This document shows positions 1,307 through 51,500 of a DNA stretch of 64,000 bases, piece after piece (position 1 is the stretch's first letter; every line of letters begins with the position of its first letter). Source of the DNA: an uncultured Elusimicrobiaceae bacterium (lineage in GTDB: Bacteria > Elusimicrobiota > Elusimicrobia > Elusimicrobiales > UBA9959); contig CAYQJX010000010.1 of the NCBI GenBank assembly GCA_964417965.1, positions 318 through 64,317 on the forward strand, given 5' to 3'. The notes beneath the pieces were generated by a model. It saw only the letters and a list, made by a program, of their open reading frames with translations, was not told where the DNA came from and did not search any database. The position numbers were made by a program, and so were the translations under genes.

Positions 1307-1342
1307 AAAAAAAAAGAACCCCGGGCCTCCCCGGGGTTCTTT
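1307..1342. terminator. Bidirectional intrinsic terminator between aclA and the TA operon
   Basis: Stem AAGAACCCCGGG / CCCGGGGTTCTT with a 4-nt loop and a flanking A tract. Confidence 0.8.
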
Positions 1343-1373: not shown

Positions 1374-1703
1374 TTAGTGCGTGTGGCGGAGCTGGATTAT
1401 GAGGGCGGTGTGGAGGACGGCGGCTATTTTAGCGAGGGTGCGGATGGTGAGGTTCTGGTTGCCGGCTTCGATGCGGGAGATCACGGACTGGGTAGTACCT
1501 ATGGCTTTGGCCAGCTGGCCCTGGGTCAGCTTCGCCTTGGCGCGGGCCTTGGCTATCTGCAGTGCCAGCCGCACTTCGATATCGGCCTTGGCATAAGCCT
1601 CTTTCCAGCGCGGATCGCTCTCCGCGCCGGCAAAGACTTCGTCCAAGGGAACACTTGCGCGTTTCTTTTTCATAAGTTTTCCCAGCCTCTCCGTGAAACC
1701 CAA
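1374..1703 (-). CDS. XRE-family HTH antitoxin (HigA-like)
   Basis: C-terminal HTH (LTQGQLAKAIGTTQSVISRIEAG); lies downstream of and overlaps a RelE-like gene. Confidence 0.8.
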   Translation of the reverse strand: MGFTERLGKLMKKKRASVPLDEVFAGAESDPRWKEAYAKADIEVRLALQIAKARAKAKLTQGQLAKAIGTTQSVISRIEAGNQNLTIRTLAKIAAVLHTALIIQLRHTH

Positions 1704-2035
1704 TCCGACATCGAACTTTTGGACCTTTCTATCTCCGCGGCCGGCACTTCCGGGGACTTCTTCAAAAACGCATTAGTAACCACTACAAACTCTTTCCAGA
1801 ACGAGTACAAGAACCTGTGCTGGTGATGCAGGATAATGATCCGCAGCTCCCATACTCCGTCCCGGAGATACTTTCCATACTCATCCGGCAGCTCCGGCCC
1901 CAGTTCGGCCAAAGCTTTAAACCATCTTTTCGCCTTGGCCTGGTGGTTAATATCCATTGCCCGCGCATAATCGCAAGCCTGGCATCTCCCGCCCGCGTTG
2001 CGGTAAAAATAAACCTTATATTTAGCCCCGTCCAT
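1670..2035 (-). CDS. RelE/HigB-like toxin (Gp49/DUF891 type)
   Basis: GVWELR, HRFLY and NAFLKKSPEVP..EIER motifs; toxin-first order. Start taken at MDGAKY (2035); alternative ATG at 2047. Confidence 0.75.
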   Translation of the reverse strand: MDGAKYKVYFYRNAGGRCQACDYARAMDINHQAKAKRWFKALAELGPELPDEYGKYLRDGVWELRIIILHHQHRFLYSFWKEFVVVTNAFLKKSPEVPAAEIERSKSSMSDWVSRRGWENL

Positions 2036-2063
2036 ATTATAGCACATATGCTATGTTTGTCAA
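2036..2063 (-). promoter_or_regulatory. Consensus sigma-70 promoter of the TA operon, containing a palindromic operator
   Basis: Minus strand TTGACA(2063-2058)-N16-TATAAT(2041-2036); inverted repeat ATAGCA-CATA-TGCTAT at 2039-2054. Confidence 0.7.
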
Positions 2064-2084: not shown

Positions 2085-2121
2085 ATAGTCTACCAGACCG
2101 CCCCGACACCATACTGTCGGG
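2085..2121 (-). promoter_or_regulatory. PafBC/RecA-NDp-like promoter, copy 1
   Basis: Minus strand CCCGACA-N6-TGTCGGG-N8-GTAGACTAT, with spacing identical to the copy upstream of recA. Confidence 0.65.
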
Positions 2122-2216
2122 GGAATTTTGGTTATTTCGGCCTCGGGAAAAGACCCCAGGCCTCCGCGGGGGGCGCCCGGCGCGGGCTGCCTCACTGTAT
2201 TTGATAAGATTGAAAC

Positions 2217-48649: not shown

Positions 48650-49537
48650 CTATTTGTCGGGGTGGAATTTGTCGTGGGCGCGCTTTACGTCGCCTTTGTC
48701 CACGTGGGCGTAGATCTGGGTGGTGTTCAGGCTGGCGTGGCCCAGCATCTCCTGCACGGAGCGCAGGTCGGCCCCGCCCTGCACCAGGTGGCTGGCGAAG
48801 GTGTGGCGGAACAGGTGCGGGTGCGGTTTAAGTTCCACCCCCGCCTCGCGGCCGAAAGCCACTATGTCCTTCCACATCTGCTGGCGGCTGAGTTTCACTC
48901 CGGAACGGTTGAGGAACAGCTCGTCGGCCACCGCCCGGCCGCCGAATTTAAGCTGCCTGGCCTCCAGGTACTCCTTCAGGCGGCTCAGCGCGGCCGCGTT
49001 GACCGGCACCATGCGCTCCTTGGCGCCCTTGCCGAAGACGCGCAGCCAGCCCTGCTGAAAATTAACCGATTCCAGCCGCAGGCCCAGCAGCTCCGACACC
49101 CGCATGCCGCTGGCGTAGAGCAGCTCTATGGCCGCCGCCGCGCGCACATGGGCGAAGGCCTGCCCCGCCGGGAAACCGAGCAGCTTCTCGGTATCGCGGC
49201 GGTCCAGGAAGCGCGGCACTTTGCGCGGCAGCTTGGGAGCCCTGAAATTGGCGGTGGGATCTTTCTGCGCCTTGCCTTCCAGCCGCAGGTAGCGGTAGAA
49301 GGCCCGGAGCGCCTCGGTCTTGCGGAAGATGGAGGCCGGGCCGAGCCCGCGGTCCTTTTTAAGGGACCACAGGTAGCCCTCCACGAACGTCGCCTCGGCT
49401 ATGGCGGGGTCGGTCTTCCTGGCCTCGCAGTAGGCCAGGAAGGCTTCCACGTCCCCGGAGTAGGCGAGGCAGGTGTTTTTTGCCAGGCCCCGCTCCATCC
49501 CCAGGTAACGCGAGAAATCAGCCGCTAAAGGACGCAT
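48650..49537 (-). CDS. xerD: Site-specific tyrosine recombinase XerD-like
   Basis: ELLYASGMRVSEL, GKGAKER.VP, PHLFRHTFASHL..GGADLRSVQEMLGHA...TTQIY. Confidence 0.88.
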   Translation of the reverse strand: MRPLAADFSRYLGMERGLAKNTCLAYSGDVEAFLAYCEARKTDPAIAEATFVEGYLWSLKKDRGLGPASIFRKTEALRAFYRYLRLEGKAQKDPTANFRAPKLPRKVPRFLDRRDTEKLLGFPAGQAFAHVRAAAAIELLYASGMRVSELLGLRLESVNFQQGWLRVFGKGAKERMVPVNAAALSRLKEYLEARQLKFGGRAVADELFLNRSGVKLSRQQMWKDIVAFGREAGVELKPHPHLFRHTFASHLVQGGADLRSVQEMLGHASLNTTQIYAHVDKGDVKRAHDKFHPDK

Positions 49538-50626
<1,089 letters not shown>

Positions 50627-50659: not shown

Positions 50660-50696
50660 ATAGTCTACAACCTCAACCCGACAGCGTAGTGTCGGG
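50660..50696 (-). promoter_or_regulatory. PafBC/RecA-NDp-like recA promoter, copy 2
   Basis: Minus strand CCCGACA-N6-TGTCGGG-N8-GTAGACTAT, i.e. TGTCGG-N10-TAGACT. Confidence 0.7.
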
Positions 50697-50843: not shown

Positions 50844-51500
50844 ATGCATCCCATACAAGAGAAGCTCCTGAATCTTTCCAAAGCCAACAACCTGGCGCAG
50901 TTCAGCCTGCGCGAAATGGCCGCCGCTATCGGCCTGCCGCAGGAATCCCCCCAGAAGATAAAGCACCATCTCCTGCAGCTCGAGAAGAAGGGCTTTTTCA
51001 CCATAGACCGGGCGAAGGGCCTGATGGAAAAGGCGAAGCTCCTGCCGGGCCTGGCCAGCGGCCTGCTGAAAGAAGCTTCCGCCCTCTTCTCCATCCCCAT
51101 AATCGGCATGGCGAACTGCGGTCCCGCCACCATCTACGCCGAGCAGAACTTCGAGGGCTTCCTGCGCGTCTCCGGGCGCCTGATCGGCCGCTCCACCCCG
51201 GCCGGCCTCTACGCCCTCAAGACCAGCGGCTCGTCCATGAACCGCGCCGAGATAGCGGGTAAGAAGATAGAGGACGGCGACTACGTGGTGATAGACAGCA
51301 ACAAGCGCGTGCCGGCCAACAACGATATTGTGCTGGCCATCATAGACAACAAGGCCACCATCAAGCGCTTCATCGACGACCGGGCCAACGGCCAGGTGAT
51401 CCTGAAGGCCGACTCCTCCCACGACTACGAGCCCATCTACCTGCACCCCGACGACGACTTCCTCATCAACGGCAAAGCCGTCGCCGTCATCAAGAGATAA
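50844..51500 (+). CDS. lexA: LexA-like repressor (winged HTH plus S24 peptidase)
   Basis: SLREMAAAIGL...HHLLQLEKKGF; IPIIGMANCG cleavage region; GSSM catalytic Ser and ATIKRF catalytic Lys; divergent from recA. Confidence 0.72.
   Translation: MHPIQEKLLNLSKANNLAQFSLREMAAAIGLPQESPQKIKHHLLQLEKKGFFTIDRAKGLMEKAKLLPGLASGLLKEASALFSIPIIGMANCGPATIYAEQNFEGFLRVSGRLIGRSTPAGLYALKTSGSSMNRAEIAGKKIEDGDYVVIDSNKRVPANNDIVLAIIDNKATIKRFIDDRANGQVILKADSSHDYEPIYLHPDDDFLINGKAVAVIKR

What the first reader, a model, noticed from the sequence alone, without database searches (positions are those of the whole stretch)
2085..2121. recA-type damage promoter in front of a toxin-antitoxin operon
SEEN: ATAGTCTAC-N8-CCCGACA-N6-TGTCGGG occurs here and at 50660-50696 with identical spacing while the spacer bases differ. 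INFERENCE: the TA pair belongs to the same regulon as recA.
Basis: partly seen in the sequence, partly recalled or inferred. Interest (0 to 1): 0.65.

Follow-up and report, generated by a model that had tools for sequence, protein, structure and literature searches.

The report
WYL-type damage promoter on toxin-antitoxin operon

Summary
ATAGTCTAC-N8-CCCGACA-N6-TGTCGGG is at 2085-2121 and 50660-50696.

Read on the minus strand it is CCCGACA-N6-TGTCGG-N10-TAGACT. This is a perfect 20-bp palindrome whose proximal half-site lies exactly where the published PafBC consensus tGTCgg(N10)tA(N3)T puts it, before an extended -10 box and with no -35 box.

The 2.9-Mb genome (an Elusimicrobiaceae MAG) has 32 such sites. 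Palindrome spacer and distance to -10 are invariant. The sites precede recA, ssb, recQ, comM, radC, uvrD-like, sbcD-like and radical-SAM repair genes, about 8 toxin-antitoxin-type modules, and defence or mobile genes.

The window's copy drives a Gp49/HigB toxin plus XRE antitoxin operon. 21 of 30 Gp49 loci across the genus carry the motif, and it is conserved in 8 of 9 orthologous cassettes that sit in unrelated contexts.

The best candidate regulator is a 317-aa HTH-WYL-WCX protein (C37:570-1523). Its nearest solved relatives are DriD and PafBC, and it co-occurs with the motif across the order. The neighbouring LexA-like gene does not co-occur.

I class it as a new member of a known kind, with an M. 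tuberculosis higBA precedent. A second sigma-70 promoter abutting the toxin ATG suggests damage-specific toxin expression.

The parts
2102..2121 (-). 20-bp perfect palindrome CCCGACA-GTATGG-TGTCGGG (arms 2121-2115 and 2108-2102). Predicted binding site of a homodimeric HTH-WYL-WCX activator. The proximal half-site TGTCGG corresponds to the PafBC '-26 element'.
   Evidence: Spacer is strictly 6 genome-wide (48 strand-hits versus 0-2 for spacers 3-9).
2087..2095 (-). P1 extended -10 box TGG-TAGACT (hexamer 2092-2087), exactly 10 nt after TGTCGG. Predicted transcription start near 2080. No -35 hexamer.
   Evidence: The geometry equals the published tGTCgg(N10)tA(N3)T (PMC8635444).
2036..2063 (-). 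P2: perfect sigma-70 promoter TTGACA-N16-(TG)cTATAAT. The palindrome TAGCAtatgTGCTA (2053-2040) in its spacer is the probable antitoxin operator. The -10 box ends immediately before the toxin ATG.
   Evidence: (12/12 match, TG present). Almost invariant in 9 orthologous cassettes.
1670..2035 (-). Toxin gene of the Gp49/HigB family (RelE/ParE-like). ATG at 2035, stop at 1672-1670.
   Evidence: Pfam PF05973 E=4.6e-11. The start codon is conserved in orthologues; the upstream ATG at 2047 is not.
1374..1673 (-). Antitoxin gene, XRE-type HTH. Its ATG at 1673 overlaps the toxin stop codon (ATGA).
   Evidence: Pfam HTH_3 E=7e-14.
1313..1342 (-). Intrinsic terminator closing the TA transcription unit.
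   Evidence: 13-bp stem followed by a T7 run.
50677..50696 (-). Second window copy of the palindrome (CCCGACA-CTACGC-TGTCGGG), in front of recA.
50662..50667 (-). -10 box TAGACT of the recA promoter, 10 nt after TGTCGG and 35 nt before the recA ATG.
49538..50626 (-). recA, the reference member of the regulon.
   Evidence: 93% identical to an Elusimicrobiaceae MAG RecA whose promoter carries the same palindrome.

Best explanation
The element at 2085-2121, read on the minus strand, is an activator-dependent promoter without a -35 box, of the same class as PafBC-, DriD- and DdaA-dependent promoters. A homodimeric HTH-WYL-WCX regulator binds the palindrome CCCGACA-N6-TGTCGGG. The best candidate is the conserved chromosomal 317-aa protein at G000:C37:570-1523, here called WYL-A. 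The promoter-proximal half-site sits at about -28 to -23, exactly 10 bp upstream of an extended -10 box (TGn-TAnnnT). The bound activator therefore substitutes for the missing -35 contact and recruits or adapts the housekeeping RNA polymerase. By homology, single-stranded DNA produced by DNA damage (or by phage or mobile-element activity) binds the WYL domain and switches the regulator on. The window's copy (P1) transcribes the Gp49/HigB toxin plus XRE antitoxin operon (2035 to 1374), so this TA pair is in the same regulon as recA, ssb, recQ, comM, radC and others. Shown here: motif anatomy, invariant geometry, genome-wide and genus-wide distribution, gene content, presence, fold and phyletic co-occurrence of the regulator, and conservation on TA cassettes. 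Inferred: activation rather than repression, ssDNA or damage as the signal, and WYL-A rather than its paralogue WYL-B as the binder.
For: (1) Geometry. TGTCGG-N10-TAnnnT matches the ChIP-derived PafBC consensus tGTCgg(N10)tA(N3)T (PMC8635444). The didA promoter printed in PMC13004042 reads TGTCGC-N10-CAATCT. As an internal control, every actinobacterial recA locus fetched shows the classic non-palindromic TGTCRGTG-N8-TAnnGT.
(2) Invariance. The -10 box lies at N10 in 32 sites versus 0-8 at other spacings. The palindrome spacer is 6 in 48 strand-hits versus 0-2 otherwise. 29 of 45 half-site matches carry the upstream arm, and the remaining 16 equal the off-spacing background.
(3) The consensus has an extended -10 (TGn) and nothing like TTGACA at -35.
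(4) Regulon content: recA, SSB, RecQ, ComM, RadC, UvrD-like, SbcD-like, radical-SAM repair and DUF2779/Cas4-like genes, plus TA and defence genes. This parallels DdaA (recA, ssb, uvrA; PMC13010146) and PafBC.
(5) Regulator. WYL-A has HTH_11+WYL+WCX domains. The profile hits DriD at E~2e-8 and PafBC at 1e-4. Foldseek's top hits are PafBC 6sj9 (5.5e-14), DriD 8tp8 (1.9e-12) and RNAP-bound PafBC 9fnd. R40 and R44 (i, i+4), with Q43 and D45, are invariant in all motif-linked homologues down to 29% identity. This mirrors DriD Arg37/Arg41 and PafB R46/R50, which read the GTC/CGAC bases.
(6) Co-occurrence. The motif occurs 7-29 times in all 24 same-genus genomes (control 0-1), and a WYL-A orthologue is present in 23 of 24. 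Outside the genus, 15 of 16 motif-positive genomes have a homologue versus 2 of 26 motif-negative ones (Fisher 2e-8; not corrected for phylogeny).
(7) TA link. 2 of 2 Gp49 and 2 of 2 BrnT toxins in this genome are behind the motif, as are 21 of 30 Gp49 and 12 of 30 BrnT loci in the genus. P1 is conserved in 8 of 9 orthologous cassettes with unrelated flanks.
(8) Precedent. M. tuberculosis higBA has one DNA-damage-induced promoter and one HigA-repressed promoter (PMC3912914).
Against: The box spacing is CGAC-N8-GTCG, one bp longer than the CGAC-N7-GTCG of DriD and DdaA, so direct transfer of their structural mechanism is an assumption. WYL factors can also be repressors (CapW, BrxR also appear in the Foldseek list), and many regulon genes are defence or TA genes of the kind such repressors control. 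The genome has a second HTH-WYL-WCX paralogue (WYL-B, C9:7284-8198) inside a motif-rich island, so WYL-A versus WYL-B cannot be settled from sequence. The AF2 model is only moderate (pLDDT 67.8; global TM 0.25-0.30). G008 has 7 motif sites but no WYL-A hit (89% complete). G032 and G092 have a homologue but no motif. The genomes are related MAGs, so the Fisher values overstate independence.
Confidence: 0.8

Rival explanations
1. The same WYL protein and box are involved, but the regulator is a repressor of the CapW/BrxR type. It sits on the palindrome overlapping the promoter and leaves when ssDNA binds. The TA operon would still be co-regulated with recA and damage-inducible.
For: CapW and BrxR are HTH-WYL-WCX repressors of defence systems and appear among the Foldseek hits. 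Many regulon members are defence, TA or mobile genes. The extended -10 box could in principle work without an activator.
Against: Operators of repressors need not keep a single-bp-exact distance to the -10 box, yet here 32 of 32 sites do. The distance equals that of the two structurally characterised activators. There is no -35 element. The nearest structural and sequence relatives are the activators PafBC and DriD, several orders of magnitude ahead of CapW and BrxR. One palindrome serves divergent promoters symmetrically (C31:10576), as expected when each half-site positions a polymerase.
Confidence: 0.1
2. The palindrome is the operator (SOS box) of the LexA-like S24 protein encoded divergently from recA (50844-51500), so this would be a classical LexA regulon with an unusual box.
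For: The LexA-like gene lies next to recA and has Peptidase_S24 and LexA_DNA_bind domains. LexA boxes are palindromes near promoters, and the regulon content looks like an SOS regulon.
Against: The LexA-like gene is missing from 8 of 24 same-genus genomes that still have 7-22 motif sites, including G013 (99% complete, 22 sites). It is present in G027, G029, G039 and G040, which have none. There is no association outside the genus (Fisher p=1.0). The palindrome is not correctly placed for the lexA-like gene's own promoter. Another Elusimicrobia recA locus (L022) has an ordinary GAAC-N4-GTTC box instead. The fixed distance to -10 and the missing -35 are not LexA-box features.
Confidence: 0.04
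3. The palindrome acts as a nucleic-acid hairpin: an intrinsic terminator (it is followed by GAATTTTGG on the + strand), a REP-like repeat or another RNA element. On this reading it is not a protein-binding promoter element.
For: The scanner lists 2101-2122(+) as terminator-like. A 7-8 bp GC-rich stem would fold. Both arms change symmetrically in relative L020, which a hairpin would also explain.
Against: Only 1 of 29 (+) and 2 of 29 (-) palindromes are followed by a T-run. Both window copies lie in divergent intergenic regions where no gene ends. At C7:1747 and C46:5460 a separate canonical terminator sits immediately upstream of the palindrome. In the sense orientation the palindrome lies upstream of the -10 box and so would not be transcribed. 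The strict N10 link to a TAnnnT box has no role in a hairpin model.
Confidence: 0.03
4. The element is recognised directly by an alternative sigma factor, with TGTCGGG as an upstream element and CTGCTAnnCT as a downstream element.
For: The element is bipartite with invariant spacing and occurs in front of a stress-type gene set.
Against: A 10-nt gap is far shorter than sigma -35/-10 spacings. The downstream box is an ordinary extended -10 for the housekeeping sigma. The obligatory upstream arm makes the site two-fold symmetric, which fits a dimer and not a sigma factor. One palindrome serves both directions.
Confidence: 0.02

Closest known systems
PafBC-dependent (RecA-NDp) promoters of Actinobacteria
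   Same: The proximal half-site and its distance to the -10 box are identical: tGTCgg(N10)tA(N3)T. There is no -35 box. recA is the flagship member and the regulon is large. The regulator has the HTH-WYL-WCX architecture, and PafBC is the top Foldseek hit. An i/i+4 arginine pair is in the recognition helix.
   Different: The PafBC site is non-palindromic and is read by a PafB/PafC heterodimer, with PafC contacting sigma. Here a second, upstream arm is obligatory and a single gene encodes the candidate regulator, implying a homodimer. No link to a Pup-proteasome locus was seen. The phylum is different.
DriD-dependent promoters of Caulobacter crescentus
   Same: A homodimeric WYL activator binds a CG-rich palindrome with a CGACA...TGTCG core that overlaps the -35 position at a fixed distance from the -10 box. 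DriD is the best sequence match among solved structures. Arg37/Arg41 correspond to R40/R44.
   Different: DriD's half-sites are separated by N7 (CGAC-N7-GTCG), here by N8. DriD's central spacer is AT-rich, here it is GC-rich (e.g. CTACGC). The DriD regulon named in the papers read here is small (didA, bapE, recJ, dnaG, CCNA_03891/CCNA_01149); recA is not listed among DriD targets in them.
DdaA of Acinetobacter
   Same: A homodimeric WYL activator with box CGACAATATGTGTCG that activates recA, ssb, uvrA and a division inhibitor after mitomycin C. It is the closest parallel in regulon content.
   Different: N7 spacing. One site lies about 160 bp upstream of aciT, so its position is not obviously fixed. 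No TA modules are reported in its regulon. It is a gammaproteobacterium.
M. tuberculosis higBA (Rv1954A-Rv1957) dual-promoter control
   Same: A HigB-type TA operon with one DNA-damage-induced promoter not controlled by the antitoxin, plus a second promoter repressed by HigA. That paper cites the RecA-NDp study for the induction.
   Different: The promoter order is reversed: in Mtb the damage promoter is directly upstream of higB. Here the sigma-70 promoter's -10 box abuts the toxin ATG. There is no SecB-like chaperone gene. The toxin subfamily differs (Gp49/DUF891).
CapW / BrxR WYL repressors of defence islands
   Same: HTH-WYL-WCX proteins that sense ssDNA and control defence genes. Here too many targets are defence, TA or mobile genes. 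Island-borne WYL-B-like paralogues are surrounded by their own box variant.
   Different: They are local repressors of one adjacent operon. This is a dispersed regulon of about 30 promoters, including core repair genes, with activator-type promoter geometry.

Membership tests
WYL-activator-dependent promoter (PafBC/DriD/DdaA class) | Half-site with an invariant GTC/GAC core (TGTCG / CGACA) | tested here: met
   The core is invariant in 32 of 32 own sites and in hundreds of sites in relatives. It matches the published motifs.
WYL-activator-dependent promoter (PafBC/DriD/DdaA class) | Fixed distance from the proximal half-site to a housekeeping -10 box (tGTCgg-N10-tAnnnT) | tested here: met
   32 sites at N10 versus 0-8 at N6-N14. 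28 of 29 palindromes have the box.
WYL-activator-dependent promoter (PafBC/DriD/DdaA class) | No recognisable -35 hexamer | tested here: met
   The hexamers at the -35 position are ACTACG, AGTACG etc., and an extended -10 TGn is present.
WYL-activator-dependent promoter (PafBC/DriD/DdaA class) | DriD/DdaA subtype: palindrome CGAC-N7-GTCG | tested here: not met
   The site is palindromic, but the spacing is CGAC-N8-GTCG (CGACA-N6-TGTCG) without exception. Spacer 5 gives 0 hits.
WYL-activator-dependent promoter (PafBC/DriD/DdaA class) | PafBC subtype: non-palindromic site read by a PafB/PafC heterodimer | tested here: not met
   The upstream arm is obligatory (29 of 45 with arm; the rest equal background). 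The candidate regulators are single genes.
WYL-activator-dependent promoter (PafBC/DriD/DdaA class) | A cognate HTH-WYL-WCX regulator is encoded in the genome and co-occurs with the motif | tested here: met
   (domains and fold). (co-occurrence: 23 of 24 in the genus; 15 of 16 versus 2 of 26 outside it).
WYL-activator-dependent promoter (PafBC/DriD/DdaA class) | Arg pair (i, i+4) on the recognition helix that reads the two guanines | tested here: inconclusive
   R40 and R44 are invariant in RxxQRD and match the pattern of DriD R37/R41 and PafB R46/R50. However, HMMER did not align the HTH region to the solved structures, so the equivalence is by pattern only.
WYL-activator-dependent promoter (PafBC/DriD/DdaA class) | Regulon contains recA and other DNA-repair genes | tested here: met
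WYL-activator-dependent promoter (PafBC/DriD/DdaA class) | Induction by DNA damage through ssDNA binding to the WYL domain, and direct binding of the box | not testable with these tools
LexA/SOS box | The LexA gene is present wherever the box is present | tested here: not met
   The LexA-like gene is absent from 8 of 24 genus genomes that have 7-22 sites, and there is no association elsewhere.
Intrinsic terminator | GC-rich stem followed by a T-run at the 3' end of a gene | tested here: not met
   T-runs follow 1 of 29 and 2 of 29 palindromes on the two strands. Both window sites are in divergent intergenic regions.
Type II HigBA-like toxin-antitoxin module | Gp49/HigB (RelE/ParE-fold) toxin gene first, followed by an overlapping XRE-HTH antitoxin gene | tested here: met
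   PF05973 4.6e-11 and HTH_3 7e-14. ATGA overlap at 1673-1670.
Type II HigBA-like toxin-antitoxin module | Toxin arrests growth and the antitoxin neutralises it; the antitoxin autoregulates through an operator | not testable with these tools
   Only indirect evidence: the conserved palindrome TAGCAtatgTGCTA inside P2.

The most novel reading that the evidence does not exclude
The two stacked promoters split toxin from antitoxin expression. The constitutive, antitoxin-repressed sigma-70 promoter P2 has its -10 box ending 0-3 nt before the toxin ATG. Its transcripts would therefore start inside the toxin ORF and could encode only the antitoxin. Only the upstream WYL-dependent promoter P1 yields an mRNA that contains the toxin start codon. 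DNA damage or ssDNA would then directly license toxin synthesis, rather than acting through antitoxin proteolysis. The same layout recurs in two unrelated toxin families (Gp49 and BrnT) and travels with the cassettes as a mobile unit.
Probability: 0.3. Interest if true: 0.75.

Novelty: new member of a known kind. Interest (0 to 1): 0.55.

Why it matters
WYL-domain activators have only recently been recognised as LexA-independent master regulators of the DNA-damage response. The described cases are PafBC in Actinobacteria, DriD in Caulobacter and DdaA in Acinetobacter. This locus extends the system to the largely uncultured phylum Elusimicrobiota and gives it a candidate regulator.

The promoter form here bridges the two known types: PafBC's exact -26/-10 geometry combined with a DriD-like palindrome, but with a spacer one bp longer.

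For toxin-antitoxin biology it makes a concrete, testable proposal. In this lineage, whole families of TA cassettes (Gp49/HigB and BrnT) carry the host's damage-response promoter as part of the mobile unit. They would therefore be transcriptionally wired to ssDNA sensing together with recA. A promoter layout that may make toxin synthesis damage-specific is also present.

Tried and rejected
2. phmmer of WYL-A alone against PDB sequences gave nothing. A family profile and a fold search were needed.
3. LexA-like protein as regulator: rejected on phyletic pattern.
4. Terminator or hairpin reading: rejected.
5. PafBC-like half-site-only promoters: the 16 TGTCGG-N10-TAnnnT hits without the upstream arm equal the background of other spacings, so there is no evidence for them.
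6. I tried to assign WYL-A versus WYL-B by separating a 'type B' box (GCGACA-N6-TGTCGC). Genome-wide counts are no higher than the reversed control in most GC-rich genomes. Only the local clustering next to WYL-B-like genes (own C9, G011:C4, G026:C27, G037:C2, G025:C2) is informative, so the assignment stays tentative.
7. The bases flanking TGTCG differ by genus (g1 GG; g8 CG/TG; g9 CA/CG). I could not tie this to a specific residue change in the wHTH.
8. The + strand reading of site 1, towards ORF 2217-2492: there is no TAnnnT at N10, so the promoter is unidirectional.
9. recA loci L021, L023 and L072 lack it, L022 has a GAAC-N4-GTTC box, and 14 of 14 genomes from the rest of the class have none.

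Full report
**Observation.** No other copy exists in the window even with two mismatches allowed; shuffles give a mean of 0.25. The window is contig C10 of a 2.89-Mb, 62% GC, 79-contig genome. Its RecA is 93%, 85% and 80% identical to RecA of uncultured Elusimicrobiaceae and Elusimicrobiales MAGs.

**Orientation and anatomy.** Both window copies lie in divergent intergenic regions, and the adjacent genes of interest are on the minus strand. On that strand the element reads CCCGACA-N6-TGTCGGG-N9-TAGACT. At site 1 the coordinates are as follows:
- Palindrome arms: 2121-2115 and 2108-2102.
- P1 -10 box TAGACT, preceded by TGG: 2092-2087.
- A perfect sigma-70 promoter, TTGACA (2063-2058)-N16-TATAAT (2041-2036) with a TG extension, scoring 12/12.
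- The palindrome TAGCAtatgTGCTA inside that promoter's spacer.
- The toxin ATG at 2035, directly after the TATAAT box.

The operon encodes a Gp49/HigB-family toxin (PF05973, 4.6e-11) and an XRE HTH antitoxin (HTH_3, 7e-14) whose ATG overlaps the toxin stop codon. It ends at a strong terminator at 1342-1313. At site 2 the same element lies 35 nt before the recA ATG.

**Genome-wide picture.** There are 20 exact and 9 one-mismatch palindromes in the genome. 28 of the 29 have TAnnnT exactly 11 nt after TGTCG on at least one side, and one (C31:10576) has it on both sides. Further counts:
- The core pattern CGACA-N6-TGTCG-N11-TAnnnT occurs 32 times, against 0 for the reversed control.
- Spacing is rigid. 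The palindrome spacer of 6 gives 48 strand-hits versus 0-2 for spacers 3-9. The N10 distance to -10 gives 32 hits versus 0-8 at other distances.
- Of 45 TGTCGG-N10-TAnnnT matches, 29 carry the upstream arm. The other 16 are what the off-spacings predict by chance.

The consensus is A-n-CCCGACA-nnaCgn-TGTCGGG-nTgGtcTGc-TAtgcT-AT. It has an extended -10 element and no -35 box.

**What it resembles.** The ChIP-derived PafBC consensus is tGTCgg(N10)tA(N3)T. Its 5' part is a '-26 element' read by PafB, its 3' part is the SigA -10 box, and there is no -35 box (PMC8635444). The elusimicrobial sites match this to the base pair. An unplanned control supports the comparison. Among the recA loci fetched, the Actinobacteria all show the classical non-palindromic TGTCRGTG-N8-TAnnGT. 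The two closest Elusimicrobiaceae show palindromes at the same distance. In L020 both arms have changed symmetrically, to GTGCGACA...TGTCGCAC.

The palindromic character is that of the homodimeric activators:
- DriD: ATACGAC-N7-GTCGTAT, with probe ATACGACAGTAACTGTCGTAT. The site overlaps the -35 position at a fixed distance from -10 (PMC13004042).
- DdaA: CGACAATATGTGTCG, with a regulon that includes recA, ssb and uvrA (PMC13010146).

The didA promoter printed in the DriD paper reads TGTCGC-N10-CAATCT, which is the same half-site-to-(-10) geometry (my reading of their sequence). The difference here is that the half-sites are one base pair further apart: CGAC-N8-GTCG rather than N7.

**Regulon content.** Pfam scans of the first downstream genes give three groups:
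- Repair and recombination: recA, SSB, RecQ, ComM, RadC, a UvrD-type helicase, an SbcD-like phosphoesterase, a radical-SAM/HhH repair protein and a DUF2779/Cas4-like nuclease.
- TA-type modules: two Gp49 toxins, two Pfam-positive BrnT toxins and one BrnT-like protein, a BrnA-like protein, an MNT nucleotidyltransferase and a lone XRE protein.
- Defence or mobile genes: three YhcG/DUF1016 nucleases, a Dam methylase heading a putative restriction-modification (RM) unit, KilA-N, RhuM-Fic, DUF3800, an ADP-ribosylglycohydrolase and an AAA ATPase.

Several genes are leaderless, with the ATG 6-7 nt after the -10 box.

**The regulator.** The genome has three WYL proteins. One is a helicase fusion. The other two are DriD-sized and have HTH, WYL and WCX domains:
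- WYL-A (C37:570-1523) lies in a core region next to tRNA-Thr and tRNA-Gly.
- WYL-B (C9:7284-8198, minus strand) lies inside a motif-rich island.

A family profile finds DriD (E about 2e-8) and then PafBC among solved structures. An AF2 model of moderate confidence (pLDDT 67.8) gives full-length Foldseek hits to PafBC (5.5e-14), DriD (1.9e-12) and RNAP-bound PafBC, ahead of CapW and BrxR.

R40, Q43, R44 and D45 of the recognition helix are invariant in every motif-linked homologue down to 29% identity. This echoes DriD Arg37/Arg41 and PafB R46/R50, which read the guanines of the GTC/CGAC core. HMMER did not align the HTH region to the solved structures, so this equivalence is by pattern only.

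**Phyletic tests.**
- All 24 same-genus genomes have 7-29 sites (control 0-1), and 23 have a WYL-A orthologue at 67-84% identity. The exception is 89% complete, and the gene usually sits within 1 kb of a contig end.
- Outside the genus, 15 of 16 motif-positive genomes have a homologue versus 2 of 26 motif-negative ones. The motif-free genus g10 has none, and neither do any of the 14 genomes from the rest of the class. Fisher gives 2e-8, which is inflated by shared ancestry.
- In the small-genome sister family the sites cluster within a few kb of the WYL gene. They use a TGTCGC variant that also flanks WYL-B in this genome. This suggests that each paralogue has its own box, with WYL-A serving the dispersed CCCGACA type. 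That assignment is tentative.
- The LexA-like gene next to recA is absent from 8 of 24 genus genomes that keep 7-22 sites. It is present in four genomes with none (p=1.0).

**The TA claim itself.** Both Gp49 toxins and both Pfam-positive BrnT toxins in this genome are behind the motif. Across 41 genus genomes, 21 of 30 Gp49 loci and 12 of 30 BrnT loci have the motif on the gene's strand within about 200 nt upstream. The chance per gene is about 0.0025.

I aligned nine orthologues of the window's toxin, at 61-82% identity. The results:
- Their left flanks are unrelated, so the cassettes sit in different contexts.
- The WYL-type P1 is conserved in 8 of 9.
- A variable linker of 21-55 nt follows.
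- An almost invariant TTGACAAAyATAGCATATrTGCTATAAT then abuts the ATG.

The cassette therefore moves as a unit of [P1][P2 with operator][toxin][antitoxin]. The arrangement has a precedent in M. tuberculosis higBA, which has one DNA-damage-induced promoter that HigA does not control and one HigA-repressed promoter (PMC3912914).

**Mechanism proposed.**
- Shown: the anatomy, the geometry, the distribution, and the presence and relatedness of the regulator.
- Inferred: a WYL-A homodimer, activated by ssDNA at its WYL domains, binds the palindrome centred at about -31.5 and replaces the -35 contact, so the housekeeping holoenzyme fires from the extended -10 box.

A further hypothesis, at about 30%, was also raised by an earlier first-reader note. 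P2's -10 box ends 0 nt before the toxin ATG in the window cassette, and 2-3 nt before it in the two BrnT cassettes of this genome. P2 transcripts should therefore start inside the toxin ORF and encode only the antitoxin, and only P1 transcripts would contain the toxin start codon. Some BrnT cassettes instead have a 6-nt gap, which is an ordinary leaderless layout, so the pattern is not universal.

**Rivals.**
- A repressor-type WYL protein (10%) would not change regulon membership.
- LexA operator (4%), hairpin or terminator (3%; only 1-2 of 29 palindromes per strand have T-runs) and an alternative sigma factor (2%) are disfavoured for the reasons given in their entries.

**Limits.** The genomes are MAGs, and this one has 4.5% estimated contamination. 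The structural model is of moderate quality. WYL-A versus WYL-B is unresolved. The co-occurrence statistics are not corrected for phylogeny.

**Verdict.** This is a new member of the WYL-activator damage-response promoter class, in a new phylum, with N8 half-site spacing. It is unusually rich in TA cassettes that carry the promoter with them.

Noticed in passing
window 2036-2063 (-) and G000:C9:10830, C46:5462: A second sigma-70-like promoter has its -10 box ending 0-3 nt before the toxin ATG. This occurs in a Gp49 cassette and in two BrnT cassettes, which are unrelated toxin families. Transcripts from it should miss the toxin start codon.
   Followed up: partly
window 48650-49537 (-): A xerD-type recombinase gene starts directly after the recA stop codon, so it is probably co-transcribed from the same WYL-type promoter.
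   Followed up: no
window 50844-51500 (+): A LexA-like S24 protein is encoded divergently from recA. It is absent from 8 of 24 same-genus genomes that keep the motif, so it is dispensable for this regulon. Its own target is unknown.
   Followed up: partly
G000:C9:1-31000: An island holds about 11 motif sites. It contains KilA-N, Gp49-XRE, two DUF1016 nucleases, an ADP-ribosylglycohydrolase-receiver fusion, the paralogue WYL-B flanked by GCGACA-N6-TGTCGC variant sites, BrnT/BrnA, RhuM-Fic, DUF2779 and ssb. It looks like a defence or mobile island wired to the host damage regulon.
   Followed up: partly
G000:C31:10576-10595; also G033-G037, G110, G167 (CGACAAACGTTTGTCG): A single palindrome has correctly spaced -10 boxes on both sides. 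One dimer site would thus serve two divergent promoters.
   Followed up: no
G000:C37:3195 (conserved at G011:C38:3281, G017:C4:3620, G018:C33:3407) and G000:C29:10973: A motif site is conserved about 1.7 kb downstream of the WYL-A gene. It precedes a small (~100 aa) protein with no Pfam match, and a similar small protein follows the C29 site. These might be damage-induced effectors such as division inhibitors.
   Followed up: no
L022:1300-1500 (Elusimicrobia MAG nzgw213 recA upstream): This recA promoter carries CGAACTTGTGTTCG, a Gram-positive-type LexA box. recA control therefore differs between lineages within the phylum: LexA in some, WYL in others.
   Followed up: no
G000 sites generally; G011, G020: The 6-nt palindrome spacers fall into a few recurrent classes: CTACGC about 10 times in this genome, and CGCCCT dominant in G011 and G020. 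This hints at promoter spread by duplication or mobile cassettes, or at indirect readout.
   Followed up: no
G000:C19:43564-43581: The sbcD-like nuclease gene uses the GCGACA...TGTCGC variant of the box, not the CCCGACA type.
   Followed up: no
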